From positions 56,943-120,942 of the forward strand of contig CAVYQR010000002.1 in NCBI GenBank assembly GCA_963770795.1: a DNA stretch of 64,000 nt. The letters run 5' to 3'. Origin of the DNA: an uncultured Chloroflexia bacterium (GTDB taxonomy: Bacteria > Chloroflexota > Limnocylindria > Limnocylindrales > CSP1-4). Made by a program: the position numbers and the translations under genes. This document shows positions 10,351 to 31,706 of the stretch, in pieces (within the stretch, counting starts at the first letter, position 1; every line of letters begins with the position of its first letter). The notes beneath the pieces were generated by a model that saw nothing but the letters and a program-made list of their open reading frames with translations, did not search any database and was not told the origin of the DNA.

Positions 10351-12309
10351 CTACGGGACGGTGACCGTCTCCACGGCCAGGACGCCCCGGTCGTCCCCGA
10401 TCGCATCCAGCACGACGTGGTACGTGAGCCCCGACGCCAGGCATCCCACGCTCACGTTCCCGGCCGGCAACGCGCCGGAGGCCTCCAGGACGCCGTCGAG
10501 GGTCATCGTCCCGTCCGGGGTCACGCCCTCGACGGCCGGGAACGCGCGGATCGCCACCGACTCCGCGTCGATCCCCGCCAGCGCATAGGTCACCTCGACC
10601 CGGTGGCAGACGGCCGGCGGCAGGGGCGTGACTCCCAGGTCCAGGCAGAAGCCCATGCCGCCGTAATCCGCGGTCTCGAGGCACGACGCACCCCCGAGGT
10701 CTCCCAGCCGGATCATCGGTTGCGCGAAGGCGCCCTCGGCCAGGTGCAGGTACGGCGAGAGGCCGGTCCCCAGCTTGAACACCGGCGAGGCAGCCTGCGA
10801 CAGCGCCACGTCGAACTGCTCGACGCCGCTCCCCGTCGTGAACGAGCCGATCTCGCTCTCGCCCGCGAACAGCCCGCCACCCGCCACCGCCCGGAACTGG
10901 TATGCCGTGTCTGCCTTCACGTCCAGCCGGGCCAGCAGGACCGTCTTCCCGAACAGCGAGATCGACGACATCGACGACGCGGACCCTACGACCTGCGGGC
11001 CACCGCCAGCCTTCCAGAAGTGGACGTCTGCCGGGGCGGGCGGATCGACCGTGAAGCCGACCATCACCACGTTGGCCCGGTCGGAATCCACGAACAGGAT
11101 CTCGACGTCGGGGCCGACAGCCAAGCGGAGCGGAGGTATGGCGGCTCGCTCGAAGATGGCCTCCAGGCCGGTCGGGCACCCTGGCGGCCTGGGCGGGAAC
11201 AGGCAGAAATCGAAGACGGGCACCAGCTCAAACCCGCCGGAGCCGGCATCGGAGGCGGGCGGATCGGCCGCCGGCAGCGTGACAGTCAAGTCGCCGGGCT
11301 CGATCACCAGGATCGGCGCGTCGGGCGGGATGGCAGTGGACGGCGACTCGCCGGAGGCGGATGGGCCGGGCCCAGCGCCGGAACCCGAGCTGTCGCCCGG
11401 GCCCGACGGGATCGGCAGCACGTCCGGACCCACCACGTCGGGGGCTACGCCGCCGGGCGGGAACGCCCACATCGCCGCAACGCGGCCGCCACCGAAGGAA
11501 CCGGCAAACGCATCGATGACCGACGCCGGCCACCAGTCGCCCTCGTACCCGGACTGTGGACGGCCGAGCGGGTCGATGACGTAGTAGGCCTCCGGGATGC
11601 CGCGCTTGGCGTTGCCCGGGTAGTATCCGTCCAGGTAGATCGCGTGGCCGCCCGTGAAGTCCTTCTGGAGCCGCAGGGCGCGGGGAACCTTCGAGTAGTC
11701 GCCCTGGACCGCGGCGCCGTACCCGGCACCCAGCAGCGACTTGAGCTGGTCGGGGCGGATCAGGCCGCTCGGGTAGTGGATGCCGTACCCACGCCAGAGC
11801 GCGATCGAAAGGTCGCCGAGTCCCGTCCCGCCGTCCTGGTCGTCCTGGAGGGTGCGAAGCACCGATCCCGTGGTAACCACGCCGGAACCCAATCGGACCA
11901 GCATTGCCCCGGACGCGAGCGTGCAGTTGGCGCCCTGGAATGGGCCGCCGTCGAACTGGGTGATCGGGGCGATCCGCGGGAAGCCGGACGGGTTGACGAA
12001 GGTGACCGGCTCTCCGCCGAGCAGCGCGGCCGAGGCGGCCAGGAGGTCCTCCGGCGAGAGTGTTGCGAGCGGCTGCGGCTCGCCGCCCGGCTCCTCGTTG
12101 AAGGCGAGAACAGCCCCGGGCACGGCGGGCATATCCGGGCCCGCCGGGGTGTCAGCACCGGTCATGGAGAACTCGGGTGCAAGCCCGGCGGTGGACTCGG
12201 GCGTGCGGTCGGCCATGGCGGCCACGACGACCGAGGCGACGATGGCGCCGATCACGGCCGCCACGCCGAACACGAGGAGCCTTGGAATGAGGCGGGCGAG
12301 GAGGCTCAT
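10351..12309 (-). CDS. secreted/membrane-anchored hypothetical protein (652 aa), possible Cys-peptidase-like domain
   Basis: N-terminal TM/signal anchor; conserved Cys (GANCTLASGAMLV) and His (GGHAIYLDGYY) spaced like a papain-type dyad; no confident family assignment. Confidence 0.5.
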   Translation of the reverse strand: MSLLARLIPRLLVFGVAAVIGAIVASVVVAAMADRTPESTAGLAPEFSMTGADTPAGPDMPAVPGAVLAFNEEPGGEPQPLATLSPEDLLAASAALLGGEPVTFVNPSGFPRIAPITQFDGGPFQGANCTLASGAMLVRLGSGVVTTGSVLRTLQDDQDGGTGLGDLSIALWRGYGIHYPSGLIRPDQLKSLLGAGYGAAVQGDYSKVPRALRLQKDFTGGHAIYLDGYYPGNAKRGIPEAYYVIDPLGRPQSGYEGDWWPASVIDAFAGSFGGGRVAAMWAFPPGGVAPDVVGPDVLPIPSGPGDSSGSGAGPGPSASGESPSTAIPPDAPILVIEPGDLTVTLPAADPPASDAGSGGFELVPVFDFCLFPPRPPGCPTGLEAIFERAAIPPLRLAVGPDVEILFVDSDRANVVMVGFTVDPPAPADVHFWKAGGGPQVVGSASSMSSISLFGKTVLLARLDVKADTAYQFRAVAGGGLFAGESEIGSFTTGSGVEQFDVALSQAASPVFKLGTGLSPYLHLAEGAFAQPMIRLGDLGGASCLETADYGGMGFCLDLGVTPLPPAVCHRVEVTYALAGIDAESVAIRAFPAVEGVTPDGTMTLDGVLEASGALPAGNVSVGCLASGLTYHVVLDAIGDDRGVLAVETVTVP

Positions 12310-12345
12310 GTGATGCAGGTCGTGGTGCCAAGCAGGGCGCTCATG

Positions 12346-13905
12346 TCATCGGCAGGCCATGGTGTACGTGCCAGTTGAGCTCGTCGTGGTCCCGCTGTAC
12401 TTGTCCGAAGTCACGGCGTAGACCGTCAGCCTGCCGGAGTAGAACACGCTTCCATCGAACGGCGCGGTCGTGCCCTGGTAGTAGTTGCCCTTGGTGACAT
12501 TCGCCGTCATCTTGCCGGAGATTGGGCCGGCGCTGGTCCTGGGGTTGGAGAGCGTCCAGTGGAAGACCACCGTGAGGCCATGCTCGGGCTGGTCGCGGTC
12601 CTGCGTCCAGGCTTCGATCGTGATGACAGCCGACGGGGTGCACGAGTAGATCGTGCCCGCGGGGCGGACCACCTCGAAGGCGGCCTCCGAGTCGCAGCGT
12701 CGGATGGTGATGGAGGAGGTCTTCGTCTGTCTCGCCTTGTCCTTGGTGTCGATCGCCTTGATGTACCAGCTCAGCGCGTCCGTCGGCGGCGTCGCGATCG
12801 TGATCTTGTCGCCGAGCGTGTCGAGGTTCGCGTACCACTTCCCGGCCGTCGTGTTGTCCATCGGCTTGGATGACCAAGTCGACGTGCCCGGAGGGCGGTA
12901 GAACAGCGTGACCGACTTGACGCCGTCGGTGTCCTTGACGGCGGCCGTGATGTTCGTGGCTGTCGTGCACGACCCGACACCCAGCGGATCCCACCACAGT
13001 GACGATCCAGAGGAGGACGACACCGACGTGATCGTCGGGCCGGTGTTGGCGCAGACCGCGACCGTGATCGAGTTTGAGCCGCTGGTCGGGATCCGCTTGG
13101 TGGCGCCCGCCGTGTCGGTGGCGACGGCGTAGAAGGCAAGCTTGCCGGCCTTGGTGATCTCGTCCGCCTTCGTGTCGAGCGTCACCTGCCAGGTCCCGCT
13201 CGTCGCCGTGCCGGCGGCCAGGCTCATCGCCGCCTGCACAAACTTCGCGGCCCCGGGCTCGCGCCAGAGCAGCGTGACGGTCTCGAGGCCCGAGGCGTCC
13301 GTCGCCTTGACCTTGAACGTCACCTTCTTGACGGCGTTCGGGCAGTAGGCGTCCGTGTCGTAGCTGATCTTCTTGGTCGAAACCGTCAGCGCGCTGAGCG
13401 ACGGCTTCGCATTGGGCGTCGGGCTCGGCGTCGGCGTGGGCGTCGGCTCCGGCGTGGGGGCCGGCGACGGCGAGAGGTTCAGGATCGCCGTCAGCGGTAC
13501 GGCGGGCGGCACGTCCGGCGGCCCGGCCGCAACCACCGCGGCGCAGGTTGCGATCGGCAGCGAGACCACCTCGCCCTTGACCGACAGCGGAGACGCCTGG
13601 ACCCAGGCCTCCGTCCGCCCAGGCAGCGGGTAGTGGATCCGGAGCCACGTCCCGTCCTCGGTCCGCCCGGTGGCCAGGAGCTTCTGGCCGCCCGTGATGG
13701 TCAGCAGCGCAGGTCCCTGGTCCGGACAGGGGTAGACGGCGAGCTCCCCCGAGGTGGTGGCCGGCTGGCCGGATGAACCACCCGATGCGATGACCGCCCC
13801 GCCCAGCCCGCCGACGACCAGGCCGCTCGCGACCACGACGGCCGCCGCCTGAGGGCCACCGAGGTTCGCCACACCGCGCATGAGGGCCGCGCCGATCGCG
13901 CTCAC
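12346..13905 (-). CDS. secreted protein with Pro/Thr linker and repeated Ig-like beta-sandwich modules (519 aa)
   Basis: N-terminal hydrophobic segment, a PTPEPTPTPTPSPTP linker, and repeated modules of about 100 aa rich in Thr/Lys; GC is locally lower than background. Confidence 0.55.
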   Translation of the reverse strand: MSAIGAALMRGVANLGGPQAAAVVVASGLVVGGLGGAVIASGGSSGQPATTSGELAVYPCPDQGPALLTITGGQKLLATGRTEDGTWLRIHYPLPGRTEAWVQASPLSVKGEVVSLPIATCAAVVAAGPPDVPPAVPLTAILNLSPSPAPTPEPTPTPTPSPTPNAKPSLSALTVSTKKISYDTDAYCPNAVKKVTFKVKATDASGLETVTLLWREPGAAKFVQAAMSLAAGTATSGTWQVTLDTKADEITKAGKLAFYAVATDTAGATKRIPTSGSNSITVAVCANTGPTITSVSSSSGSSLWWDPLGVGSCTTATNITAAVKDTDGVKSVTLFYRPPGTSTWSSKPMDNTTAGKWYANLDTLGDKITIATPPTDALSWYIKAIDTKDKARQTKTSSITIRRCDSEAAFEVVRPAGTIYSCTPSAVITIEAWTQDRDQPEHGLTVVFHWTLSNPRTSAGPISGKMTANVTKGNYYQGTTAPFDGSVFYSGRLTVYAVTSDKYSGTTTSSTGTYTMACR

Positions 13906-13977
13906 GTTCCCTTCTCCCGAACGGGACGTCCTGTCTGCTCTACGCCGGCGGAAGATAGCGGGCCTGACACGAGCCGG

Positions 13978-15135
13978 TCATCCGCCAATTGTCCCTATTA
14001 CGCTGATCTCGCTGATGGCCGCGTCATCGAACGGAGTTCCCGCGACCGATGTCTTGACCGACCGATAGACGGAGACGATCGTGATCCTGAGCCGGGTTGC
14101 GCCGGGGTTCTCGCCCAGGCTGATCCGCTGGGCCTTCGCGGTGTCCTTGAGCGTAACCGCGATCGCCTCGCCGCCGTTGACGGAGATCTGGACCTTCTTG
14201 GGCCGGAGGTTGCCCTTGTAGAGCGCGGTCGAGGCACCGTAGCCGTTGTTGATCACGACGGCCTCGACGCGGGCGGTGTCGAACGACACCTCGATCCATT
14301 GGCCCTTCTCGGTCCTGGCGCCCTCCTGCCAGCACGTCTTGACGTCCCCGTCGATGGCCTTGTCCGGCTGGAACTTCGCCCGGTCGCCCACGACGGAGGA
14401 CGCGGCCGCGCCCGTCAACACCAGCGCGGCCCCTTCGACCTTCGCCGACGGCGCGCCGGTGGACGGCTCCGCGGACGTGACGGGGGTGTCGGTGGACTCA
14501 GGCCCGGACGACGAGCCGGCGCTCGCGGCGGGGCTGGGCGCCTCGGACGCCCCGGTGGCGGGTCCGGGACTCTTGAGCAGCACGCTGGCGGCCACGACCA
14601 GGGCCCCGGCCACGAGCCCCAGCAGCACCATCACGATCAACCAGCCGGCGATCCCCCGCGAGCTGCCTCCCTCGGGCTCCGTGCGTGCCGCAGTGACGCC
14701 CGCCACCGGCACCGCCCTTGGCTTCGCCTTGGCGGCGACCGCAGCAGCGATCTGCTCCTTCGATACCTCCGTCACGCGGGCGGCTTCCGCGAGACGCGCG
14801 CCACAGGACTGGCAGAACGTGCGGGTCCCGGCGTTCGCGATACCGCACGCGGGACACCGGAGCAGGGGTCCGGTCTCGACCACCGGGGGGACGGCCGGGG
14901 TTTCGGCGGGAGTGACGAGCGCGGAGAGCCCCTCGTCGTCGCCTGGCGGGCGGATGCGCGCGCCTGTGGGGGCGGCAGGCGTGGCCGTGACATCGACGGG
15001 CAGTGCGACGGCATCGATGACTTCGGCAGCTTCACCCTCCCACTCCAGGAAGACTCCGCACGAGCCGCAGAACTGGTCGCTGCCCTCGTTCGCGAAGCCG
15101 CACCGGCGGCAGGTCAGACCGGCCCCGTCGGTCAT
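13978..15135 (-). CDS. double zinc-ribbon / TM / discoidin-like membrane protein (paralogue of 41254..43506)
   Basis: CRRCG...FCGSCGVFLEW and CPACG...FCQSCG ribbons, a TM helix (IAGWLIVMVLLGLVAGALVVAA), and a C-terminal DGDVKTCW...ISEISVIG domain alignable to the C-terminus of the 750-aa protein. Confidence 0.7.
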   Translation of the reverse strand: MTDGAGLTCRRCGFANEGSDQFCGSCGVFLEWEGEAAEVIDAVALPVDVTATPAAPTGARIRPPGDDEGLSALVTPAETPAVPPVVETGPLLRCPACGIANAGTRTFCQSCGARLAEAARVTEVSKEQIAAAVAAKAKPRAVPVAGVTAARTEPEGGSSRGIAGWLIVMVLLGLVAGALVVAASVLLKSPGPATGASEAPSPAASAGSSSGPESTDTPVTSAEPSTGAPSAKVEGAALVLTGAAASSVVGDRAKFQPDKAIDGDVKTCWQEGARTEKGQWIEVSFDTARVEAVVINNGYGASTALYKGNLRPKKVQISVNGGEAIAVTLKDTAKAQRISLGENPGATRLRITIVSVYRSVKTSVAGTPFDDAAISEISVIGTIGG

Positions 15136-15142
15136 GTCTGCC

Positions 15143-17275
15143 TCATCCCCGGATCATCAGGACGAGCGGAAGGTCAAGAAGGCTCCGCAGCATATCGAAG
15201 CTGGGCGGGGCCATCGACGATTCCGTCACCAACAGTGGCGCCGCGATGGGCGGGAAGGGCGGCCCGCTTGCCGGCTCGGCGAGGAGGTCACGCATGCCGA
15301 GCAGGTCGTTGTGGAAGACCAGGACCTGCCGGCTGAACGCGCCCTGCTCATCGGCCGTGACCACCGGCAGGTCCTCCGTGATCCCGCGGCTCCAGCGCAG
15401 CCGGACCTGTGCCCCGGGCGGGAAGCCGCGCCCCGTGGCGATGACCACCAGCCCGGGCCGCGCCACCTCCGGGCTCAGCTCCAGGAGGGCGAGCGAGCCA
15501 CCCCCGGTGAGGCGCGCCGTGCGCGGTGAGCCCGTGTAGTTGTCGGCCACCTCGAGGGTAGCGGCCCTGGCGCCCGGCTCCTTGGGCGTGAACACGATGG
15601 TGATCGTGCACGCCTCGGCACGGTACAGGATCCTCTTCGCGCAGCCGTCCGACGCAATGGAGTAGTCGCCCTTCGCGGAACCTGCGAGGGTCGCCCCGGA
15701 GACCGATAGCGCGCCCCAGCCGGAGTTCGTGAGGACGGCGGCGCCCGGCACCGGGCTCGTCCCAAGCGCGCCCGTGCCGAACTCCACGACCGCGGGGTTG
15801 AGCATGGGCACTGGCGGGAGGTCCCGGATGAACACGTCCACTTGCTTGTTCCCGTCACCGGCGACAAGCGTCGGCGCGTCCGAGAAGAAGGCGATGTAGC
15901 GCCCGTTACCGGCGACAACGGAGCCCTGGCTCCTCGCCCCCGACGGTCCGCCGGCCGTGTCCACGGACACCATCGCTGTCTCGCCCGCGGTCATGTCTCG
16001 GATGTATATCTCGGAGGTCCGGAGCGCGACGGCCGCATAGCGGACCGCCGGGGTGGCACCCAGGGAGGCGGTGCCCACCAGATCCTTCGCCAGCGCGGAG
16101 AACGCGACCATCCGGCCATCACGCGAGATCGAGGCCTGGCCGCTCCCGCTCGCGGGTGCGGCGCCCGACGCATCCATGGAGACGAGCGCCGTCAGGCCGG
16201 TTTGCCGGTCGCGGCGGTAGACCTGCCACGGGCCCGGCGCGAAGGCCACATCGACGAGGTTGCCGGCCGTCGACTCGAACGCGACGTACCGGCCGTCGGC
16301 GGAGATCGCTGGCGCCTCCGAGGGACCGTTGGCGGGCGCCCCTCGGGTCCCGGAGTCGAGTCCGCTGCTGATCCGCTCGGTCGTGCTGGCGGTGATGTCA
16401 CGCAGGTAGACCTGGTCACCGGCGCCCGTGTCCTCGTTCACCAGGCTGGAACCGGCATCGGAGGTGAAGGCCACCTTGGTGCCGTCGGAGGAGATCGACG
16501 GCTGGCGGCTCGTACCCGACGGGGTTCCACCCTCGAACCCTGCGCTGACCAGGATCGAGGTGCCGCTGTTGCGGTCGAAACGGAAGACATCGGCCAACCG
16601 GTTGCCGTCGTTCGCGACGATCTCGGCGTCTTCCGACGTGTACGCGACGTACCGACCGTCGGCCGAGACAGACGGCTCCCGGCTCCAGGTCGCCGTTCGC
16701 CTGCCCTGGCGCGAGGCAATCTCGGTCTGGCCCGTATCCCGATCCCACACCAGGACCACGGACCGGGCGACGGCAACGCTGGATGGAGCGAGGTAGGTGA
16801 AGGCGACCACCTTGCCGTCCGCGGAGACGGCGGGTTCGGCCACCAGGCCGCTGGGCGGCACCTGCGCCCCTCCTGGGAGCGGCAGCCGCAGCGTGGTGCC
16901 CTTGGACCGGTCCCGGACGAAGACGTCCACCGCCCCGTTCGTGTCGCCGGCGACGAGGTCGGCGGCCCCCGACACGAACGCCACGTACCGCCCGTTGCTG
17001 CTGATGGACGGCGAGCTCGAGCCGCCACCCGCGAACCCGCCGCCGAACCTCTGCGAGACGAGCGTGGTCTTGCCCGGCGGCTGTGGCAGGGCCGCCTTGA
17101 CCGGTGCCTGGCTGGGCGCGAATGGGCCGGCCGCACCGGCAGCGGGACCGGCCGCGGATCCCGTGGCCAGGAGCGCCAGGACCAGGCCGGCGGCCCCGAC
17201 CCTCGGGCCTGCGCGCCTCAGGGCCGCAGGTATCCGGAGTAGAAGACGGCGGGGGTGCACGGGCTGCTCGTGCAT
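15143..17275 (-). CDS. secreted PD40/TolB-like beta-propeller repeat protein (710 aa)
   Basis: More than 8 repeats of S.SADGRYVAF.S.A.LV..D.N...DVF.RD. N-terminal signal-like segment; the start may be the internal GTG near 17197, which would avoid overlap with the upstream gene. Confidence 0.7.
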   Translation of the reverse strand: MHEQPVHPRRLLLRIPAALRRAGPRVGAAGLVLALLATGSAAGPAAGAAGPFAPSQAPVKAALPQPPGKTTLVSQRFGGGFAGGGSSSPSISSNGRYVAFVSGAADLVAGDTNGAVDVFVRDRSKGTTLRLPLPGGAQVPPSGLVAEPAVSADGKVVAFTYLAPSSVAVARSVVLVWDRDTGQTEIASRQGRRTATWSREPSVSADGRYVAYTSEDAEIVANDGNRLADVFRFDRNSGTSILVSAGFEGGTPSGTSRQPSISSDGTKVAFTSDAGSSLVNEDTGAGDQVYLRDITASTTERISSGLDSGTRGAPANGPSEAPAISADGRYVAFESTAGNLVDVAFAPGPWQVYRRDRQTGLTALVSMDASGAAPASGSGQASISRDGRMVAFSALAKDLVGTASLGATPAVRYAAVALRTSEIYIRDMTAGETAMVSVDTAGGPSGARSQGSVVAGNGRYIAFFSDAPTLVAGDGNKQVDVFIRDLPPVPMLNPAVVEFGTGALGTSPVPGAAVLTNSGWGALSVSGATLAGSAKGDYSIASDGCAKRILYRAEACTITIVFTPKEPGARAATLEVADNYTGSPRTARLTGGGSLALLELSPEVARPGLVVIATGRGFPPGAQVRLRWSRGITEDLPVVTADEQGAFSRQVLVFHNDLLGMRDLLAEPASGPPFPPIAAPLLVTESSMAPPSFDMLRSLLDLPLVLMIRG

Positions 17276-18483
17276 GACAGCGAGAGGTTGAGGCTCTGGC
17301 CGTCCTGGAGCACGATCGGCGTCACGAAATGGAGGTCGTAGTCGCGGAAGTTCTCGAGGTTCAGCTGGATCAGCGGCGTGGTGTCACGCAGCACGACCAC
17401 CGCGCCCTTGGTCGCGTTCGGGTTCGAGAACACCAGGTCCGTGATGAACAGGGTGCCCGCGACCGGCACGGTGGTGTGCGTCTCATCCAGCTGACCATCC
17501 ACAGGGTTGCCGAGGCCCGGGATCAGGACACCCGGCGTGGGCGGTGCGGTGGGCGGCGGTTCGGGCGTCGCGACCTCCCCGGGCGCGAGCGTGGGCGCGA
17601 GGGTGGGCTCTGGAGTTGGTGGAGGCGCGGCGGCGCCGCCAGCTGCCGGCATGGTGGGAAGGCCGGCGTTGCCGAGCGCCGCGTTGACGTCGTCCCGGAG
17701 CGAGGCGATGGGTGACGCGACGGCCTCGCCGACGGCGGTCTCGATCGTCGGCCGCAAGACGAATGCCCAAAGGACCACGGCAGCGATGACCGCAATCAGC
17801 ACCGCCGCCACGAGACGCCCGAACCACGGCGGAAGCACCGCCTCCTGGAGCATGGTGCCGTCGAGGGTCAGCGGCAGCCGGCCCTCCGGCGTGACGAGGA
17901 CCTGGAACGATCGCGCCTTCGGCTGGCCCCGCCAGAACCGCTTCGCCGGCCTGACCCGGATCTTGGCGAACCCGGCCATCCCGGGATCGACCACCACGCC
18001 CGGCGGCTTGATGTCAAAGGCGAGCAGGAGATCGGGATCAGCTCCGTCAACCTGGGCATTGAGGCGCACGTTGCCCCGGTTGTCGAGCGCTAGCTCGTGG
18101 TCGCCGCCCCGCGAGCCCCGTGACGTGCGCGGGACCAGGTCGGCGTACGGCTCGACGAACGCGCCGACCTCGATCGACCCCTCCTCGACGGTCGAGCCCG
18201 CCGGGTCCTCTCGGGAGCGGGCCCGCAGCCCGAAGGTCGTGGTTCCGGCGGGAGTGGTGGCGGCGCGCGGTGGTCGAAAGACGATCCGGGAGGCACTCTC
18301 GGCACCAGGGAAGAGCGAGATCGTCGGCGGGTCGATGGTCGCCCAGACCGCAGCATCACCGACCACGTCGAGCGTGAACTCGTCGACCACGGTGCCGGTG
18401 TTGCGTACGCGGAACTCGACGCCGGCCTCGGCGCCGGGTTCGACCGCGACGGAAGACGTAAGGAGCGTGACGGATGCGCCCAC
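17218..18483 (-). CDS. membrane protein with two N-terminal beta-sandwich-like domains, a TM helix and a Pro-rich extracytoplasmic tail (421 aa)
   Basis: Hydropathy shows a single TM (LVAAVLIAVIAAVVLWAFVL); PTPEPTLAPTLAP linker. Confidence 0.5.
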   Translation of the reverse strand: MGASVTLLTSSVAVEPGAEAGVEFRVRNTGTVVDEFTLDVVGDAAVWATIDPPTISLFPGAESASRIVFRPPRAATTPAGTTTFGLRARSREDPAGSTVEEGSIEVGAFVEPYADLVPRTSRGSRGGDHELALDNRGNVRLNAQVDGADPDLLLAFDIKPPGVVVDPGMAGFAKIRVRPAKRFWRGQPKARSFQVLVTPEGRLPLTLDGTMLQEAVLPPWFGRLVAAVLIAVIAAVVLWAFVLRPTIETAVGEAVASPIASLRDDVNAALGNAGLPTMPAAGGAAAPPPTPEPTLAPTLAPGEVATPEPPPTAPPTPGVLIPGLGNPVDGQLDETHTTVPVAGTLFITDLVFSNPNATKGAVVVLRDTTPLIQLNLENFRDYDLHFVTPIVLQDGQSLNLSLSCTSSPCTPAVFYSGYLRP

Positions 18484-18676
18484 GGGCGGAGTCTAGCGGT
18501 CATGGAGAGGACCGATAGGGCCGACTGGCCGGCCCGTCGGTGCCGCATATCCCCGTCCGCTGCTGCCCGTTGAGCCCACGTTGCGCGCACGTAAAGGGTC
18601 GTGCCCCATGATCCGGGCAGGATTTGTGGCGGCTCGAACGTCCCTCAGCCGCCGAGCTGGTGGAGGGTCCGCATCG

Positions 18677-19324
18677 ATGGTCGCCGAACCGATCCCCCTC
18701 AATGCCGCGGTTCCCGTGATGGTCGTTGCGGCGGATCCGTTGTCGCGCGCTGGCATCGTCAGCCAACTTCGCACGGGGCGCGGGTTCACCATCGTGTCGG
18801 AGGATGACCCGTCGCCGGATGCCGTCGCGCTCGTCGTCGCCGACGAGGTGGATCCGGCAACGGCCGCGGAGATCCGGGGGCTGCGCGGCCGCGGGGTGGG
18901 GCGCGTCATCGCGCTCGTCGCGCGGGTGGACGACAAGAGCCTGATCGTCGCCGCCGAGGCGGGGGTCACCGGAGTAGTCCGCCGCTCGGAAGCGACAGCG
19001 AGCAACCTGACGGCGGCCATCAGGGCGGCGGCGGCCGGCGAGGGCACGCTCCCGCCCGACCTGCTCGGCCGACTCCTGCGTCAGGTCGGCCACCTCCAGC
19101 GCCAGGTGCTGTCGCCGCGAGGGCTGACGTTCGCTGGCCTCACGGAGCGTGAGCTTGAAGTGCTCCGCCTCCTGGCCGACGGCATGGACACGGCCGAGGT
19201 GGGCCAGCGGCTGTTCTACAGCGATCGGACGGTCAAGAACATCATCCACGACGTGACGTCGCGGCTGGAGCTGCGCAACCGGACGCACGCGGTGGCGTAC
19301 GCGATCCGCGAGGGACTCATCTAG
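18677..19324 (+). CDS. LuxR/NarL-family transcriptional regulator
   Basis: C-terminal GerE/LuxR HTH (LTEREEVLRLLADGMDTAEVGQRLFYSDRTVKNIIHDV) and an N-terminal receiver-like domain; start assumed at MVAEPIP. Confidence 0.75.
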   Translation: MVAEPIPLNAAVPVMVVAADPLSRAGIVSQLRTGRGFTIVSEDDPSPDAVALVVADEVDPATAAEIRGLRGRGVGRVIALVARVDDKSLIVAAEAGVTGVVRRSEATASNLTAAIRAAAAGEGTLPPDLLGRLLRQVGHLQRQVLSPRGLTFAGLTERELEVLRLLADGMDTAEVGQRLFYSDRTVKNIIHDVTSRLELRNRTHAVAYAIREGLI

Positions 19325-26940: not shown

Positions 26941-29106
26941 TCAGGGCTCCAGCAGCCCGAGCCAGTCGCCGAACTCCTCGACGTGCGTCATCCGGCCGAG
27001 CTTCTGGTACTCGCGCTCGGTGCCGCGCACGAGATCCAGCATCGTGACGGGCCGGTCTTCGGCGATCGCGTAGAAGGCGGCGGCGACGCAGATGTTCCGG
27101 ATGTTGCCGCCGGACAGCTTGAACGCGGTCGCCAGGAACTCGAGGTCAACCTCGTCGGCGCGCGGCACGGCGGGCGGCAGGTGGAGGTCCCACAGCCGCA
27201 GCCGGTCGGCCTCCTCCGGCAGGGCGAAGTCCACGATCACGTCGAGCCGGCGCAGGAACGCCTCGTCGAGGTTCGCACGCAGGTTGGTGGTCAGAACGGC
27301 CAGACCGTCGAAGCGCTCCATCCGCTGGAGCAGGTAGGCGATCTCGACGTTCGCGTAGCGGTCTCGAGCGTCCTTCACCTCGGACCGCTTGCCGAAGATG
27401 GCGTCGGCCTCGTCGAACAGCAGGACGCCGTTCACGCGGTCGGCCTCGTTGAAGATCCGGTCGAGGTTCTTCTCTGTCTCGCCGATGTACTTGTCCACCA
27501 CTGTGGCGAGGTCGATCAGGTAGAGGTCAAGCCCGAGATCGGCGGCGACGACCTCCGCGGACAGCGTCTTGCCGGTGCCGCTATCGCCGGCGAACAGGGC
27601 CGTGACGCCCGTGCCCCGAGCCGAGCCACCGCCCATCCCCCACTCTCTGACCCGCTCCCGGTGCCTCGCGCGGCTGGTCAGCTCGCGCAGCGGCCCGATC
27701 GTCTCGGCCGGCAGCACCAGGTCATCCCAGCCAGCCTGGGCCTCGATCCGGCGCGCCAGCCGTTCCAACCCGCCGGCGTTCTGGGCTCGCGCGCCCGCCC
27801 GCAGGTCCTCGGGCTCGATGGACCGCGCCTCCGCCACGGCGCGGCGCTTCGCCGCCACGGCCGCCCGCCGGACCTGGATCGGATCGAGCCGGAACCCGGC
27901 AGTCAGGCCTGCGGGATCCAGGGAGTCGACGACGCCGGCCGCGGCCCCGTCGTATTCGTCGTCGCCGCCGCCGGCCGCCAGAGCCGCGTGCCAGGTGGCG
28001 CGCCGGGCGTCAACCGCGTACAGCGGCGCGTCCAGGATCACGGGCACCTCCCGCGACCAGGCCGGGTCCCAGCCCCGGAGGCCGAGCAGCACGACCGGGC
28101 AACGGGCTTCGGCGAAGGCACGGATCGCCGCGGGGCCGCGCTCAGCCAGCACCTCGATGGGCCCGGCCACGATCGCCGCGCCGCGAAGGACTGCCTCGCG
28201 GACACAGGCGGCGCCAAGCTCGACGGCATCGTCGCCGGCCGTGATCCGCGAGAGGTCCACCGGCAGGACGCCGAGACCCGCGGAACCGACGGCGGCCGTC
28301 GCCCAGGAACGGCCCGCCGTGCCTGCGCGGTCGCGGACGTATGCCAACCGCGTGCCGGACCGCAGCGCCGTCGTCAGCGTGGGTCCGCCGATGGCATCGG
28401 GCGAGGGCTCCGGGTCGCTCGCAGACATGAGCGCCTCGACGCGGGGCTCCGGCCGGTCGTCACCGAGCAGGTGCGCGGTGACCCGGTCCGGGACCCGGAG
28501 AGCCCTGGTGAGGAACGGGCGATCGGGATCGTCGATGAGGATCAACCCACCGCTGACCAGGTGCGAGGTCGGGGCAAGCCGGTGCCGCTCGGTGCGCAGA
28601 CCATCCCCGCCCCGCGTCAGCTCCAGGGCCAGACCGGCACTCGCCCGCCGGCGCGAGACATCGTCGTGGAGGTAGGCATACAGGCGCTCGAACCGGGGAT
28701 CCAGGTCGGGCGCCAGGGCGACGAGCAGGACCTCCAGGTCCATCTCGTCGAGCTCGAAAGCGCCGGCCAGTCGCCTGAGGCGCAGGTCGGCGCCGGCGGC
28801 CTCCGCAGCATCGGCCCGTGCCTCGACCCTGGCGATCGCTGCGTCCAGGCCCGGGCCCGTCCCGGGTTCGATCCGGGGTGGCTGGTCGAACAGGGCATCC
28901 ACCTGGGCCTCGGTGATGTACAGGCCCCGGAACCGGTCGCCCGGGTCCGGATCAGTCGCGCGCCGGCGGTCCACGGCGGCGCGGACGCGCGCCTCGACCA
29001 CGACCAGGCGCCCGAAGAGGTAGACCAGCGACGGGTCCGGGCGACCGGCATCCGCGGGCGCGGCGGGCGCTGAGTCCGGCTCCTCCCGGGACGCGCGGGT
29101 GGTCAT
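26941..29106 (-). CDS. eCIS AAA+ ATPase (Afp15/Pvc15-like)
   Basis: Walker A (GDSGTGKTLSAEV), Walker B (LLFDEADAIF), and a second-region DKYIGETEKNL; 721 aa with an N-terminal extension as in Afp15. Confidence 0.85.
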   Translation of the reverse strand: MTTRASREEPDSAPAAPADAGRPDPSLVYLFGRLVVVEARVRAAVDRRRATDPDPGDRFRGLYITEAQVDALFDQPPRIEPGTGPGLDAAIARVEARADAAEAAGADLRLRRLAGAFELDEMDLEVLLVALAPDLDPRFERLYAYLHDDVSRRRASAGLALELTRGGDGLRTERHRLAPTSHLVSGGLILIDDPDRPFLTRALRVPDRVTAHLLGDDRPEPRVEALMSASDPEPSPDAIGGPTLTTALRSGTRLAYVRDRAGTAGRSWATAAVGSAGLGVLPVDLSRITAGDDAVELGAACVREAVLRGAAIVAGPIEVLAERGPAAIRAFAEARCPVVLLGLRGWDPAWSREVPVILDAPLYAVDARRATWHAALAAGGGDDEYDGAAAGVVDSLDPAGLTAGFRLDPIQVRRAAVAAKRRAVAEARSIEPEDLRAGARAQNAGGLERLARRIEAQAGWDDLVLPAETIGPLRELTSRARHRERVREWGMGGGSARGTGVTALFAGDSGTGKTLSAEVVAADLGLDLYLIDLATVVDKYIGETEKNLDRIFNEADRVNGVLLFDEADAIFGKRSEVKDARDRYANVEIAYLLQRMERFDGLAVLTTNLRANLDEAFLRRLDVIVDFALPEEADRLRLWDLHLPPAVPRADEVDLEFLATAFKLSGGNIRNICVAAAFYAIAEDRPVTMLDLVRGTEREYQKLGRMTHVEEFGDWLGLLEP

Positions 29107-29109
29107 GGC

Positions 29110-29994
29110 TCAGGGTCGCGGGACGCCGCGGACGCGCACGACCCGGCCACTACCCAGGCCGGCGAGCTCGGCCGAGACTTCGTCCTCGACGGCTCCCGGG
29201 GCGGTGCCCGTTGCGGCGCTCGCGGCGGCGCCCTCGCCCTTCCTGCGGTCCGCTCCCCTTCCCTTCCTGGTCTCGTGCGTGCCGGTCGACACGGCCGCCA
29301 CCCCCGTCGATCCTGCGCGGACCAGCTCGGATTGGAGCGCGTCGTCGCCGGGACCGAGCACGCGGCTCGCCGCGCGGCCGCGACGCGCACCGCCACGGAG
29401 GCGCCGTTCTGCATCGATCCCGGGGCCACCGAACCCGAGGGTCGGTCCCTCCATCACCGGGGCCGCGACCGGCCACGACCAGGAGGCGTCCAGGGTGCTG
29501 TCGCGACGAGGTCGAGCGACGGCTTCAGCTCCCCGCCCATCGCCGACCACACGTCGGCGATCGAGCGGTCGGGTCCGACCGGCAGGCCGACGCTCAGGAT
29601 GATCGGGTACGGACGACGACGCCAGCGAGCCGGAGAGGAGCTCCGCCGGGATCGTCTCGTTCCGGACGAACGTGGCGAGGCAGGCTGAGAGCAGGCGGTG
29701 CTCGTCCTCGGGGCGCTGCGTCCACGCGGTGACGAGGTAGGAGAGGCGGAACCGCCGCGGGGGCATGCGTCGCTCGCCGGCGACGCGCGACGCCTCGTCG
29801 CGCATCAGCTGGGGCACGATCTGGCGCCGCGAGGTGTCCTCGCGGATGTCGTACAGGTAGATGTCGACCGTCGGGGCGTTGCGGCGCGCAACCCATTCCC
29901 TGGTGGGCGCGTCGAACAGGACTTCCACGCGCGACCCGTTGAGCGCATCGCGGCGGACGAGAGCCTCGATCGCCTCGTCGACCTCCTGGATCAT
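29110..29994 (-). CDS. DUF4255 (Afp16/Pvc16-like tail terminator/cap) protein
   Basis: MIQEVDEAIEALVRRDALNGSRVEVLFDAPTREW...DIYLYDIRED matches the DUF4255 N-terminus; start at ATG 29994; C-terminal third is low-complexity. Confidence 0.7.
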   Translation of the reverse strand: MIQEVDEAIEALVRRDALNGSRVEVLFDAPTREWVARRNAPTVDIYLYDIREDTSRRQIVPQLMRDEASRVAGERRMPPRRFRLSYLVTAWTQRPEDEHRLLSACLATFVRNETIPAELLSGSLASSSVPDHPERRPAGRTRPLDRRRVVGDGRGAEAVARPRRDSTLDASWSWPVAAPVMEGPTLGFGGPGIDAERRLRGGARRGRAASRVLGPGDDALQSELVRAGSTGVAAVSTGTHETRKGRGADRRKGEGAAASAATGTAPGAVEDEVSAELAGLGSGRVVRVRGVPRP

Positions 29995-30176
29995 CGCCGC
30001 AAGTGTCCCGCCCGACCGCGTCACGGTCCCCCGGCCCCGGGGCATCCGTTCGGGCGGTCGCCGTTGCCCGATCGGGTGATCGCACCCGCCCGACCGCCCG
30101 CGCGGGCGGTCCTTGTTCGCGTGCCGTGCGGGTGGGAGCCTCGGCATGTCCGGTCATCGTACGGAAGGGGCGTCAT
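29995..30176. promoter_or_regulatory. divergent intergenic promoter region between the eCIS cap/ATPase/cargo operon and the sheath-led structural operon
   Basis: 182-bp gap between the divergent starts; promoters not identified by motif. Confidence 0.4.
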
Positions 30177-31694
30177 ATGCCGAGCTACCTGTCACCCGGC
30201 GTCTACGTCGAGGAGGTGCCGTCCGGCTCTCGACCGATCGAGGGTGTCGGGACCGCCGTCGCGGCGTTCGTCGGCCTCGCGGCGAAGGGCCCGTTCAACG
30301 AGCCACGGCTGCTCACCAACTGGGGGCAGTTCACCTCGACGTTCGGCGACTTCATGGAGGGTTCCTACCTCGCCCATGCGGTCTATGGATACTTCCTGAA
30401 TGGCGGCGGGTCCTGCTACCTGGTGCGCGTCGGTGCCGACGGAGCCCAGCCGGTCGCACGGGTGGAGCTGCCGAGCGCCGCCGATGCCGCGAAGCCCGCC
30501 TTCCGCGTCACGGCGCAAGAGCCCGGCGCGGCGGGCAACGACCTGAGCGTCGATATCGCCGAACCCAGCGACGCCGGCGAAGGGGTCTTCAAGCTCGTCG
30601 TGAAGCAGGGCGGCAAGACCGCGGAGACCTTCGACAACGTGACCGTCGGCCGCGGCAAGCAGAACGTGTCGACGGTCGTCAAGGCGCAATCGAAGCTCAT
30701 CACCATCGAGGAGGTGGGCTCACTGGCCGCCCCGGCAACCGCGTCCGCGGCCGCGCTCAGCGGCGGCAGCGCGAGTGTCCCCGCCCGCGTGACGCCCGAC
30801 GACTATGTCGGGAACTCGGCGGATCGGACCGGCTTCGCCGGCCTGGAAGCCGTGGACGAGGTCACGATGCTCGCCGTGCCCGACCTGATGGCCGTGTACG
30901 AGCAGGGGATCATCGACCTCGAGGGCGTCCTCGCCGTCCAGCTCGCGATGATCGCCCACTGCGAGCTGATGGGCGACCGCGTCGCCATCCTCGACGCGCC
31001 TCCAGGCCTCAACTCGCAGCAGGTCAAGGAGTGGCGGGTCGACAAGGCCGGCTACGACAGCAAGTACGCGGCCCTCTACTGGCCCTGGATCAAGGTGTTC
31101 GATCCATTGTCCGGCCAGGCGAAGTTCGTCCCGCCCGGGGGGCACATGGCCGGCGTCTGGGCCCGGAACGACGACACCCGCGGGGTCCACAAGGCCCCGG
31201 CCAACGAGGTCGTCCGCGGCGCCATCGCCCTCGAGCTCCAGGTGACCAAGGGCGAGCACGACGCGCTCAATCCGAATGGGATCAATGTCATCCGTTCCTT
31301 CCCCGGCCGCGGGATCCGCGTGTGGGGCGCCCGGACGCTCTCGTCCGATCCCGCCTGGCGCTACCTCAACGTCCGGCGCCTGTTCAACTACGTCGAGGAG
31401 TCGATCCTCGAGGGGACCCAGTGGGTCGTCTTCGAGCCGAACGACATGGCCCTCTGGGAGCGCGTGAAGCGGACCGTCGGCTCATTCCTGCTCGGGGTCT
31501 GGCGGGACGGTGCGTTGTTCGGGGCCACCCCGGACGCGGCGTTCTACGTCAAGTGCGACGCAGAGACCAACCCGCCGGACGTCATCGACCGCGGGCAGCT
31601 CGTCGTCGAGGTGGGAATTGCCCCGGTGAAGCCCGCCGAGTTCGTCATCTTCCGCATCGCCCAGTTCTCGGGCGGCGCGGGCGTCAGCGAATAA
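30177..31694 (+). CDS. contractile tail sheath protein (eCIS sheath)
   Basis: N-terminus MPSYLSPGVYVEEVPSGSRPIEGVGTAVAAFVGLAAKGP is the canonical sheath signature; 505 aa. Confidence 0.9.
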   Translation: MPSYLSPGVYVEEVPSGSRPIEGVGTAVAAFVGLAAKGPFNEPRLLTNWGQFTSTFGDFMEGSYLAHAVYGYFLNGGGSCYLVRVGADGAQPVARVELPSAADAAKPAFRVTAQEPGAAGNDLSVDIAEPSDAGEGVFKLVVKQGGKTAETFDNVTVGRGKQNVSTVVKAQSKLITIEEVGSLAAPATASAAALSGGSASVPARVTPDDYVGNSADRTGFAGLEAVDEVTMLAVPDLMAVYEQGIIDLEGVLAVQLAMIAHCELMGDRVAILDAPPGLNSQQVKEWRVDKAGYDSKYAALYWPWIKVFDPLSGQAKFVPPGGHMAGVWARNDDTRGVHKAPANEVVRGAIALELQVTKGEHDALNPNGINVIRSFPGRGIRVWGARTLSSDPAWRYLNVRRLFNYVEESILEGTQWVVFEPNDMALWERVKRTVGSFLLGVWRDGALFGATPDAAFYVKCDAETNPPDVIDRGQLVVEVGIAPVKPAEFVIFRIAQFSGGAGVSE

Positions 31695-31706
31695 GGAGCC
31701 GCCTGA

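What the first reader, a model, noticed from the sequence alone, without database searches (positions are those of the whole stretch)
10351..18483. Five-gene minus-strand cluster of secreted or membrane proteins of unknown function next to the injection-system locus
The cluster encodes:
- a 421-aa membrane protein
- a 710-aa PD40/TolB-type beta-propeller
- the 385-aa zinc-ribbon/discoidin paralogue
- a 519-aa Ig-like repeat protein with a PT linker
- a 652-aa secreted protein with a papain-like Cys/His spacing

None is a recognisable enzyme of central metabolism. A divergent LuxR-type regulator sits at 18677. The 12.3-13.9 kb segment has visibly lower GC and different codon usage (Lys/Thr-rich), suggesting horizontal origin. 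Sharing the CisA-like paralogue hints at a functional link to the neighbouring contractile system, for example envelope components that receive or position it. This is speculative.
Basis: inference. Interest (0 to 1): 0.5.

Follow-up and report, generated by a model that had tools for sequence, protein, structure and literature searches.

The report
Envelope gene module of an injection system
The five genes are real and almost certainly form an operon belonging to the neighbouring phage-tail-like injection system of an uncultured soil Chloroflexota bacterium: two are relatives of known Streptomyces injection-system proteins and three are new envelope partners, while the suggested foreign origin of one gene is not supported.

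Summary
All five minus-strand genes exist as described. The window is Chloroflexota (Candidatus Limnocylindria-like), not an actinomycete.

- **E (421 aa)** belongs to the Sco4256–4258 family of type IId CIS effectors: 37% identity (2e-50) to a Streptomyces in-locus member, with matching domain boundaries.
- **C (385 aa)** shares CisA's architecture distantly; the true CisA homologue is at 41254–43506.
- **The divergent LuxR** matches the Streptomyces CIS-locus regulator.
- **D** is a secreted PD40 propeller, not TolB.
- **B** is a membrane-anchored Cys-bracketed repeat protein.

D, B and A are lineage-specific.

Linkage is strong. CIS markers flank E in 49 of 55 species-level loci, D follows E in 73 of 74, and seven of seven distant family members examined sit in or beside CIS loci. 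Conversely, same-clade CIS contigs usually carry E. Two loci lack an adjacent CIS.

Gene B's low GC reflects Thr/Lys-rich composition. Its synonymous codon usage is native, so horizontal origin is unsupported.

The likely role, an envelope docking and wall-processing module for a cytoplasmic CIS, is inferred. It is a new variant of a known kind.

The parts
17218..18483 (-). Gene E (421 aa), a Sco4256-4258-family CIS-associated bitopic membrane protein. It has a cytoplasmic tandem PapD/ASH-like beta-sandwich (1-213), a TM helix (~219-256), a Pro/Thr-rich linker (280-317), and a highly conserved ~100-aa beta-sandwich C-terminal domain of unknown family.
   Evidence: Model with pLDDT 78. The Foldseek templates (CEP192, RbmA, 2QSV, FimC/CsuC, transglutaminase) are the same ones published by HHpred for Sco4256. 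BLASTP gives 37% identity and 2e-50 over residues 1-254 against a Streptomyces in-locus RICIN-domain protein. The family has 5618 clusters at 50% identity. The C-terminal domain has no PDB or NCBIfam relatives.
15143..17275 (-). Gene D (710 aa), a predicted secreted PD40 beta-propeller with a choice-of-anchor D/ASH-like Ig domain and a C-terminal beta region. Its start overlaps the end of E by 58 nt.
   Evidence: Pfam PD40 at 3e-21 and NCBIfam choice_anch_D at 1e-12; TolB model far below cutoff. D follows E in 73 of 74 species-level loci. The same 58-nt overlap occurs in L001. The propeller matches only generic PD40 modules in plasmids.
13978..15135 (-). Gene C (385 aa), with CisA-like architecture: two cytoplasmic zinc ribbons, a TM (167-185), an Ala/Ser/Pro linker, and an extracytoplasmic NADase-type discoidin glycan-binding domain.
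   Evidence: Pfam NADase_transloc at 1.9e-18 and DZR; NCBIfam NADase_discoid at 7.8e-29. Its only in-window paralogue is at 41161-43503. The C profile hits the CisA-position ORF of a Kitasatospora CIS locus at 1.5e-32. Pairwise against a Streptomyces CisA-position protein, only the Zn ribbon is significant. Present in 54 of 64 loci.
12346..13905 (-). Gene B (519 aa), with an N-terminal membrane anchor, an SH3-like region (by eye only), a PT linker, and three ~115-aa Cys-bracketed beta-rich repeats. It is Thr/Lys-rich.
   Evidence: TM at 21-39 and Cys positions. Repeat layout and weak MG2/DUF2914 hints. Native GC3 of 0.92. Present in 29 of 59 loci, confined to the closer sub-lineage.
10351..12309 (-). 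Gene A (652 aa), with an N-terminal TM anchor, an extracytoplasmic C39-like/papain-fold cysteine peptidase domain (68-290), a disordered Pro/Ser-rich linker (304-395), and FN3-like beta domains (401-650).
18484..18676 (.). Divergent LuxR-E intergenic region (193 nt). It carries a conserved direct repeat CAACG-N6-CTCAACGG (18567-18583, minus strand) and a -10-like TAGACT box (18490-18495) 6 nt before E's GTG, which suggests a leaderless or very short-leader transcript.
   Evidence: The intergenic length is conserved (164-296 nt, mostly ~196-235) in 65 loci. Conserved blocks appear in the alignment. CTYAACG occurs in 57 of 65 loci, 4.7 per kb against 0.28 per kb background.
18677..19324 (+). LuxR/GerE-type regulator (215 aa), a homologue of the regulator encoded in Streptomyces type IId CIS loci.
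   Evidence: Pfam GerE at 1.9e-13. Adjacent to E in 68 of 72 loci. The profile hits the Streptomyces sp. NBC_01426 CIS-locus LuxR at 2.4e-60. In S. coelicolor, SCO4263 is required for sheath-operon transcription (PMC2000904).
19366..26939 (-). Variable cargo zone: a 1061-aa protein (19366-22551), a 302-aa eCIS_core/DUF4157 protein (22555-23463) and a 1128-aa protein (23553-26939).
   Evidence: eCIS_core at 1.1e-32. The two large proteins have no Pfam, PADLOC or PHROG hits. In relatives they are replaced by other large ORFs, including one with an Ntox4 toxin domain.
26941..41124 (.). Core type IId-like CIS genes: AAA+ ATPase with WHD (26941-29106, minus), Pvc16 (29110-29996, minus), sheath (30177-31694), tube (31707-32165 and 34858-35304), LysM/CIS_tube (35309-35992), VgrG-like (35999-37711), gp25 (38118-38516), baseplate J (38549-40501) and P2_I (40501-41124).
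   Evidence: Pfam hits. Refined start coordinates read from the sequence.
41254..43506 (+). CisA-family protein (750 aa) in the canonical position downstream of the baseplate genes. It has zinc ribbons, a long Ala/Glu/Gln-rich repeat, a TM and a discoidin-like C-terminal domain. It is the paralogue of C.
   Evidence: Translation and Pfam. BLASTP gives 30% identity over 270 aa, 3e-18, against the Streptomyces CisA-position zinc-ribbon protein.

Best explanation
The five genes form one operon, divergent from a LuxR-type regulator. The operon is an integral, lineage-specific extension of a type IId (cytoplasmic, Streptomyces-like) contractile injection system locus in a Candidatus Limnocylindria-like Chloroflexota genome.

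- E is this locus's sole member of the Sco4256-4258 family. In Streptomyces those single-pass membrane proteins co-purify with CIS particles and are required for tube-lumen density and CIS-mediated cell death.
- E's cytoplasmic PapD-like tandem domain is the part shared with that family, so it is the likely CIS-interacting part.
- C is a second membrane protein built like the firing adaptor CisA. Its cytoplasmic zinc ribbons are candidates for contacting the particle. Its extracytoplasmic discoidin domain is a candidate for binding wall glycans.
- D (secreted PD40 propeller with an Ig-like domain), B (anchored Cys-bracketed repeat protein) and A (anchored C39-like cysteine peptidase with FN3-like domains) are predicted to lie outside the membrane.

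I propose that the five proteins together form an envelope module. It would tether or receive the cytoplasmic CIS at the membrane and bind, and through A cleave, the cell wall or the module's own exodomains at the firing site.

Shown: gene structure, homologies, folds, topology signals and co-conservation with the CIS. Inferred: operon status, co-regulation, physical interactions, A's substrate, and the biological outcome.
For: Homology to CIS-specific families:
- E against a Streptomyces IId in-locus RICIN-domain protein: 37% identity, 2e-50, residues 1-254.
- tblastn of E hits 27 actinomycete and Deinococcus plasmid records annotated hydrolase, hydrolytic protein or RICIN.
- The Foldseek templates for E equal the published HHpred templates for Sco4256, and the TM sits at the same residues.
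- Published function of the Sco4256-4258 family: PMC10066040 and PMC10020575.
- The C profile hits the CisA-position ORF in Kitasatospora at 1.5e-32.
- The LuxR profile hits the Streptomyces CIS-locus LuxR at 2.4e-60.

Co-conservation across species-level loci:
- CIS markers within 10 kb of E in 49 of 55 loci.
- LuxR in 68 of 72, D in 73 of 74, C in 54 of 64.
- The opposite flank (ADH/PEPC) is kept in only 24 of 57.
- Five of five distant E-family contigs are CIS-adjacent, as are two actinomycete plasmid loci.
- Reverse test: ten same-clade CIS contigs with enough flank carry E. Contigs with more distant CIS ATPases show no clear E, LuxR or D matches.

Operon-like spacing: a 58-nt overlap, then gaps of 7, 36 and 72 nt.

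Topology: every product has a TM or signal-like segment, and C and E have large N-terminal cytoplasmic domains.

A is an apparently active clan-CA peptidase.
Against: - Two loci (L025, L070) have E-D-C with no CIS gene within 10 kb. Four more are undetermined because a ~2750-aa ORF fills the flank.
- D, B and A have no counterparts in actinomycete CIS loci, and their domains are generic envelope modules.
- C's C-terminal domain is only weakly similar to a Streptomyces CisA-position protein pairwise.
- The conserved LuxR-E intergenic motif is absent from all 21 sheath-Pvc16 intergenic regions, so no shared operator was found.
- All the Limnocylindria loci may share the arrangement partly by descent.
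- No interaction, expression or activity data exist, and the host is uncultured.
- I could not compare E with the Sco4256 sequence itself.
Confidence: 0.68

Rival explanations
1. An independent cell-envelope operon (wall-binding proteins plus an autolysin-like peptidase) that lies beside the CIS locus only through inherited synteny, with no functional connection.
For: L025 and L070 keep E-D-C without an adjacent CIS. The D propeller, C discoidin domain, B repeats and A peptidase are generic envelope modules. D's propeller matches unrelated secreted proteins. No operator motif is shared with the sheath/Pvc16 promoter region. All 80 loci come from one class.
Against: E belongs to a family reported as rarely found outside type IId CIS regions (PMC10020575). 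It is CIS-adjacent in other phyla in different gene orders. The CIS-side linkage (49 of 55) far outlasts the ADH/PEPC-side synteny (24 of 57). Same-clade CIS contigs usually carry E.
Confidence: 0.17
2. An effector cassette: E is a membrane-targeting toxin cargo of the CIS, as proposed for Sco4256-4258. The downstream genes are its immunity, maturation or export helpers rather than a docking structure. For example, A could proteolytically process E, and D could neutralise E's exodomain in the producer.
For: Sco4256-4258 are toxic in E. coli and required for a filled tube lumen (PMC10066040). D immediately follows E with a conserved 58-nt overlap in 73 of 74 loci. C39-type peptidases are typically processing enzymes.
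Against: A 710-aa secreted propeller is atypical for an immunity protein. Distant E members with the same C-terminal domain lack D. E's C-terminal domain shows no toxin-like similarity. A CIS that kills its own producer needs no immunity.
Confidence: 0.12
3. A horizontally acquired island (at least gene B, 12.3-13.9 kb) unrelated to the native genome.
For: GC is lower in 12-13 kb (0.672 in the 1-kb window; 0.688 for gene B) than in its neighbours.
Against: The drop is confined to codon position 1 and reflects Thr/Lys/Ser-rich composition. GC3 is 0.92, and the leave-one-out synonymous-codon log-likelihood (-0.818) is better than most genes in the window. B homologues occupy the same position between C and A in related genomes. 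No mobile-element, phage or defence hits were found.
Confidence: 0.03

Closest known systems
Sco4256/Sco4257/Sco4258 CIS-associated effectors of Streptomyces coelicolor (type IId cytoplasmic CIS)
   Same: E shares the ~215-aa N-terminal PapD/Ig-like tandem domain, followed by a single TM at the same residues. It is 37% identical (2e-50) to a Streptomyces in-locus member. It is encoded in a IId-type CIS locus near the DUF4157 gene, the AAA ATPase and the LuxR.
   Different: E's C-terminal domain is a distinct, highly conserved ~100-aa beta-sandwich with no lectin, RICIN or toxin similarity. E is single-copy. It lies on the far side of the LuxR gene and heads an operon with four further envelope genes. 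Toxicity and particle association are untested.
CisA (Sco4242), the membrane protein required for Streptomyces CIS firing
   Same: C and the 750-aa protein both have a Cys-rich zinc-binding cytoplasmic region, a single TM and a ~130-150-aa carbohydrate-related C-terminal domain. The 750-aa protein is in the canonical post-baseplate position and is 30% identical (3e-18) to a Streptomyces CisA-position protein.
   Different: C is not in the CisA position. Pairwise, it matches the Streptomyces protein significantly only in the zinc ribbon. Its C-terminal domain is a NADase-type discoidin domain. A second CisA-like gene in one locus has not been described in the papers I read.
C39-like / papain-fold (clan CA) cysteine peptidases, e.g. 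B. anthracis 3erv, pseudomurein endoisopeptidase PeiR, ComA/PCAT1 peptidase domains
   Different: No Pfam or NCBIfam C39 model matches. A is not fused to an ABC transporter. It is membrane-anchored with a long disordered linker and FN3-like domains. Its substrate is unknown.
T6SS membrane complex and thylakoid/membrane anchors of other CIS
   Same: Conceptually similar: membrane and envelope proteins encoded with a contractile machine that could position it at a membrane.
   Different: There is no sequence or fold relationship to TssJLM. The resemblance is functional speculation only.

Membership tests
Sco4256-4258 CIS effector family | Conserved N-terminal ~200-aa domain with a PapD/pilus-chaperone-like fold, homologous among members | tested here: met
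   BLASTP 37% identity, 2e-50 over E residues 1-254 against the Streptomyces sp. NBC_01426 in-locus RICIN-domain protein. The E profile scores 1.3e-64 on that ORF. The Foldseek templates match the published HHpred list for Sco4256. The Sco4256 sequence itself was not available.
Sco4256-4258 CIS effector family | Single transmembrane segment directly after the N-domain (~residues 219-255) | tested here: met
   The model has a helix at 219-256 and the hydropathy peak is at 224-242. The published TM hits for Sco4256 fall at 219-255.
Sco4256-4258 CIS effector family | Encoded within or beside a type IId CIS gene cluster | tested here: met
   In the window, in 49 of 55 species-level loci, and in seven of seven distant loci examined.
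Sco4256-4258 CIS effector family | Variable C-terminal domain; lectin, RICIN or toxin-like in a subset | tested here: inconclusive
   E has a C-terminal domain, but it belongs to no known family. Only about a third of published members carry the lectin domain.
Sco4256-4258 CIS effector family | Toxic on expression; needed for tube-lumen density and CIS-mediated death | not testable with these tools
   Experimental property (PMC10066040).
CisA (Sco4242) family, tested for gene C | Bitopic protein with a Cys-rich Zn-binding cytoplasmic region before the TM | tested here: met
   Two CxxC...CxxC zinc ribbons (residues 9-26 and 94-111) and a TM at 167-185. Topology is predicted only.
CisA (Sco4242) family, tested for gene C | Conserved ~150-aa C-terminal domain homologous to CisA's | tested here: inconclusive
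   Pairwise, C's C-terminal domain against the Streptomyces CisA-position protein is not significant (E 5.4), though motifs align. The C profile hits the Kitasatospora CisA-position ORF at 1.5e-32 and the window's 750-aa protein at 3.8e-21. The window's 750-aa protein does meet this feature (3e-18).
CisA (Sco4242) family, tested for gene C | Gene located immediately downstream of the baseplate wedge genes | tested here: not met
   C lies about 25 kb away, in the E operon. The post-baseplate position is occupied by 41254-43506.
CisA (Sco4242) family, tested for gene C | Required for CIS contraction and firing in situ | not testable with these tools
   Experimental property (PMC12237407).
Type IId contractile injection system locus (the context) | Sheath, tube, spike/VgrG, gp25, baseplate J and P2_I, plus AAA+ ATPase and Pvc16_N terminator, with a DUF4157/eCIS_core gene | tested here: met
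   Pfam hits for every component. The subtype is inferred from similarity to Streptomyces and Chloroflexota loci. No phylogeny was built.
Clan CA C39-like cysteine peptidase, tested for gene A | Papain-like alpha+beta fold | tested here: met
Clan CA C39-like cysteine peptidase, tested for gene A | Catalytic Cys at a helix N-terminus, with His and Asp/Asn and an oxyanion Gln conserved | tested here: met
   Q118, C129, H222 and D246 are invariant in 31 sequences. The helix starts at residue 129. The three-dimensional geometry of the triad was not measured.
Clan CA C39-like cysteine peptidase, tested for gene A | Match to a curated C39 / C39_2 sequence model | tested here: not met
   No Pfam or NCBIfam family even at E of 5 or less. 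A is therefore a fold-level relative, not a member of an existing sequence family.
TolB (Tol-Pal system), tested for gene D | Full-length match to the TolB equivalog model | tested here: not met
   TIGR02800 scores 28.2 bits against a cutoff of 343. D shares only PD40 repeats.

The most novel reading that the evidence does not exclude
In Limnocylindria, the cytoplasmic type IId CIS is served by a dedicated trans-envelope apparatus.

- Two bitopic proteins, E (Sco4256-like) and C (CisA-like), capture the particle on the cytoplasmic face.
- Their exodomains assemble with a secreted propeller (D), a repeat protein (B) and a C39-like peptidase (A).
- The peptidase locally opens the wall, so that firing occurs at a defined, pre-breached envelope site.

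This would be a Gram-positive-type functional analogue of the T6SS membrane complex. It would also recast 'Sco4256-type effectors' as docking components rather than cargo.
Probability: 0.2. Interest if true: 0.75.

Novelty: new variant of a known kind. Interest (0 to 1): 0.52.

Why it matters
How cytoplasmic (type IId) contractile injection systems engage the membrane and wall, and how firing leads to cell death, is an open question. It has been studied almost only in Streptomyces. A recent Chloroflexota study noted that Roseiflexus lacks close cisA homologues.

This locus shows that another Chloroflexota class keeps a genuine CisA homologue and a Sco4256-type protein. It also adds a tightly co-conserved set of extracytoplasmic partners: a propeller, a second CisA-like protein, a repeat protein and an apparently active cysteine peptidase.

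That provides concrete candidates for the missing envelope side of the machine. It also suggests that Sco4256-type proteins may act in the membrane together with exported partners. These ideas can be tested by interaction modelling, heterologous expression and metatranscriptomics.

Tried and rejected
- **Horizontal origin of gene B.** Rejected. Only GC1 is low, and GC3 and synonymous codon usage are native.
- **Shared operator between the LuxR-E region and the CIS promoters.** The conserved CTYAACG repeat (57 of 65 loci) is absent from all 21 sheath-Pvc16 intergenic regions. The window's copy at 29936 lies inside the Pvc16 coding sequence.
- **Sigma-70 promoter and intrinsic terminator scan.** Nothing above chance.
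- **Anti-phage defence or phage origin.** No meaningful PADLOC or PHROG hits.
- **D as TolB.** Rejected.
- **E-D fusion protein (P0337, L083) as Rosetta-stone evidence.** Rejected as a probable frameshift artefact. D fragments lie in several frames, and the E match stops at profile position 332.
- **Sequence searches for A and for E's C-terminal domain.** PDB, NCBIfam and plasmid searches found nothing.
- **Exact-sequence look-up of the window's own E.** No contig record.
- **BLAST self-comparison of B.** No significant internal repeats, although three Cys-bracketed modules are visible.
- **First attempt at the profile-building script.** Timed out and was redone.

Full report
**1. Observation**

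The window is about 70% G+C, so long spurious ORFs occur on both strands. A GC3 frame analysis singles out five consecutive minus-strand genes at exactly the reported coordinates, with GC3 of 0.87-0.92:
- A 10351-12309 (652 aa)
- B 12346-13905 (519 aa)
- C 13978-15135 (385 aa)
- D 15143-17275 (710 aa)
- E 17218-18483 (421 aa)

E and D overlap by 58 nt. The D-C, C-B and B-A gaps are 7, 72 and 36 nt, which fits a single operon. A GerE/LuxR gene is divergent from E. The start at 18677 gives 215 aa, as in homologues.

Upstream of A lie an XRE-type HTH gene, a Zn-alcohol dehydrogenase and PEP carboxylase. Beyond the LuxR lie, in order:
- two large unknown proteins and a DUF4157/eCIS_core protein;
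- a complete CIS gene set: AAA+ ATPase, Pvc16, sheath, tubes, LysM tube-like, VgrG-like, gp25, baseplate J and P2_I;
- a 750-aa zinc-ribbon/TM/discoidin protein.

**2. The five products**

*E.* E has no signal peptide. Its model (pLDDT 78) shows:
- two N-terminal beta-sandwiches (1-106 and 112-213);
- a long TM helix (219-256);
- a disordered Pro/Thr-rich linker;
- a ~100-aa C-terminal beta-sandwich, the most conserved part of the protein.

*D.* D has an Arg-rich, signal-like N-terminus, PD40 repeats and a choice-of-anchor D/ASH-like domain. It fails the TolB model by a wide margin.

*C.* C has two zinc ribbons, a TM at 167-185 and a NADase-type discoidin domain.

*B.* B has an N-terminal anchor, a PT linker and three ~115-aa modules, each bracketed by a Cys pair. 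Only weak Ig-like Pfam hints support the fold.

*A.* A has several parts:
- an N-terminal TM;
- Q118, C129, H222 and D246 invariant in 31 homologues, with C129 at a helix N-terminus;
- a disordered linker and FN3-like domains.

None of the five has a lipobox or an LPXTG motif.

**3. Composition**

Gene B's GC (0.688) is lower only because GC1 is 0.55 (Thr 14%, Lys 5%, Ser 9%). Its GC3 is 0.92. Its leave-one-out synonymous-codon likelihood is better than that of most genes in the window. B homologues sit between C and A in relatives. The horizontal-origin inference is therefore not supported.

**4. Host lineage**

E has more than 1000 close homologues (60-76% identity, full length). The named ones come from Chloroflexota / Candidatus Limnocylindrales MAGs. 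A scan of species-representative genomes returned 80 loci, 79 of them from Chloroflexota MAGs; the exception, labelled Verrucomicrobiia, is probably a binning error. The window is therefore Limnocylindria-like Chloroflexota, not an actinomycete.

**5. Co-conservation**

I mapped the window's proteins onto the 80 loci by tblastn, and by my own gene calls and profiles. The recurrent order is: tube, sheath | Pvc16, AAA, variable large ORFs, eCIS_core | LuxR (divergent) | E, D, C, (B, A).

| Feature near E | Loci with it / loci with enough flank |
|---|---|
| Any CIS marker (at least 9 kb upstream available) | 49 / 55 |
| LuxR | 68 / 72 |
| D | 73 / 74 |
| C | 54 / 64 |
| A | 39 / 59 |
| B | 29 / 59 |
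| ADH or PEPC (opposite flank) | 24 / 57 |

The six exceptions split two ways:
- Four have a ~2750-aa ORF that fills the flank. In a related locus a similar giant ORF ends in an Ntox4 toxin domain and adjoins eCIS_core.
- Two (L025, L070) are flanked by unrelated genes.

A profile search of 1.84 billion representatives shows a large E family: 5618 clusters, 962 of them at E below 1e-30. Five of five distant members that I looked up are also next to CIS genes, in different arrangements. These include an actinobacterial-looking contig with WhiB, PAAR and a SARP-like regulator. The family reaches Acidimicrobiales.

For the reverse test I scanned metagenome contigs with a profile of the CIS ATPase:
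- Ten contigs with a same-clade ATPase and enough flank carry E.
- One clear case (L113) lacks E.
- Contigs with more distant CIS ATPases show no clear E, LuxR or D matches.

**6. Link to known families**

Vladimirov et al. (PMC10020575) describe Sco4256 as follows:
- It is found in purified S. coelicolor CIS particles.
- It has a PapD-like domain at ~2-215, a TM at ~219-255 and a variable C-terminal domain.
- Homologues occur in Actinomycetes (including Ilumatobacter), Cyanobacteria and Chloroflexi type IId loci, and rarely elsewhere.

Their HHpred template list is RbmA, CsuC, FimC, 2QSV, CEP192, 7SQC, transglutaminase and protein 4.2. My Foldseek search on E returned the same set.

Casu et al. 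(PMC10066040) show that Sco4256-4258 share an N-terminus and a single TM and are toxic in E. coli. They are also required for a filled tube lumen and for CIS-dependent death.

Direct sequence evidence:
- tblastn of E against plasmids hits 27 Streptomyces, Kitasatospora, pSCATT and Deinococcus records annotated hydrolase, hydrolytic protein or RICIN.
- In Streptomyces sp. NBC_01426 the hit lies between the DUF4157 gene and the AAA ATPase of a canonical IId locus. It is 37% identical to E over residues 1-254 (2e-50).
- In Kitasatospora a full-length E homologue directly follows the CisA-position gene.

E is the only such gene in the window.

For CisA:
- The window's 750-aa protein is 30% identical (3e-18) to the Streptomyces CisA-position zinc-ribbon protein across the zinc ribbon, TM and C-terminal domain.
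- C matches that protein significantly only in the zinc ribbon.
- C's profile nevertheless hits the Kitasatospora CisA-position ORF (1.5e-32) and the 750-aa protein (3.8e-21).

The LuxR profile hits the Streptomyces CIS-locus LuxR at 2.4e-60. In S. coelicolor the cluster's LuxR-family regulator, SCO4263, is required for sheath-operon transcription (PMC2000904).

D, B and A have no counterparts in actinomycete CIS loci. I found no report of PD40 or C39-type partners.

**7. Regulation**

The LuxR-E intergenic region is conserved in length across 65 loci. It carries a conserved direct repeat (CTYAACG twice; 57 of 65 loci; 17-fold enriched). It also has a -10-like box 6 nt before E's GTG, which suggests a leaderless transcript. 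The repeat is absent from all 21 sheath-Pvc16 intergenic regions. Co-regulation through a shared operator is therefore not shown. Generic promoter and terminator scans were uninformative.

**8. Interpretation**

The best-supported reading is that the five genes are an operon belonging to the CIS locus. E is a Sco4256-type protein, C is a divergent CisA-like protein, and D, B and A are lineage-specific extracytoplasmic partners.

The proposed mechanism has two parts:
- The cytoplasmic domains of E and C engage the particle.
- The exodomains, together with D, B and the peptidase A, bind and process the wall at the firing site.

This mechanism is inferred from topology, homology and co-conservation. 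It is not demonstrated.

Rival explanations:
- inherited synteny of an unrelated envelope operon (L025 and L070 support this);
- an effector cassette with helper or immunity genes;
- a foreign island (rejected).

**9. Verdict**

The codon-usage claim fails and the horizontal-transfer reading is unsupported. The link to the CIS is supported and can be stated more precisely.

Relative to the literature, E and the CisA-like proteins are new members of known families. The conserved E-D-C(-B-A) operon with a propeller, a second CisA-like protein and a C39-like peptidase is a new variant of the type IId locus.

Interest is moderate. The module offers candidates for the unknown envelope side of cytoplasmic CIS, but in an uncultured lineage and without functional data.

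Noticed in passing
window 41254-43506 (+): The CisA-family protein contains a very long, near-perfect Ala/Glu/Gln-rich repeat (units such as AEAQRRQDEVAAAAA) between its two zinc ribbons. This coincides with a local GC of 0.77 and a strong GC/AT skew at 41-43 kb. The Streptomyces counterpart (545 aa) lacks it.
   Followed up: partly
window 32590-34830: A 2.2-kb stretch of about 80% GC lies between the tube genes and has no clean gene call. Two long ORFs in different frames overlap here (32567-34369 and 33514-34830), and neither has a Pfam hit. In actinomycete IId loci this position holds a large DUF4157 or tape-measure-like gene. A frameshift or an unusual gene is possible.
   Followed up: no
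window 19366-22551 (-) and 23553-26939 (-): Two large Lys-rich proteins (1061 and 1128 aa) lie between the LuxR and the AAA ATPase, with no Pfam, PADLOC or PHROG hits. This slot is hypervariable among relatives. Other genomes have a 2741-aa protein ending in an Ntox4 toxin domain or a ~2750-aa Annexin-repeat protein. It looks like a cargo/effector hot spot.
   Followed up: partly
window 43550-46684 (-): A 1044-aa AAA_16/AAA_22 + Trans_reg_C + BTAD (SARP/AfsR-like) regulator lies next to the CisA homologue. A similar regulator sits beside PAAR, GerE and an E-like gene in the actinobacterial-looking contig L085. It may be a second conserved CIS regulator.
   Followed up: no
window 18484-18676; loci L002-L081: The LuxR-E intergenic region has a conserved direct repeat (CTYAACG twice, in 57 of 65 loci) and a -10-like TAcACT/TAGACT box only 6 nt from E's GTG. 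This implies a leaderless E transcript. The factor that binds the repeat is unknown.
   Followed up: partly
window 9381-10196 (-): An XRE-type HTH_3 protein (271 aa, GC3 0.79) lies between the alcohol dehydrogenase and gene A and is conserved in about 8 related loci. It overlaps the 3' extension of the 460-aa ADH ORF, whose true end is probably earlier (~387 aa in relatives).
   Followed up: no
L083 (ERZ25039524 contig_43156) 9962-14800: An apparent 842-aa E-D fusion protein. D-like fragments lie in several reading frames in this 75% GC long contig, so the fusion is probably an indel or frameshift artefact of assembly and not a real Rosetta-stone fusion.
   Followed up: partly
L069, L073, L079, L047: In a more distant Limnocylindria subgroup the module is rearranged and partly duplicated (for example E, A, E, B, D, D in L069). 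A- and B-like genes sit between two E paralogues, which suggests modular reshuffling of the same parts.
   Followed up: no
L082 8153-11431: A distant relative encodes a CisA-like zinc-ribbon protein, then a PAAR protein, then an E-like protein in a row beside GerE, Pvc16, AAA and eCIS_core. This places an E-family gene directly next to a spike-tip gene.
   Followed up: no
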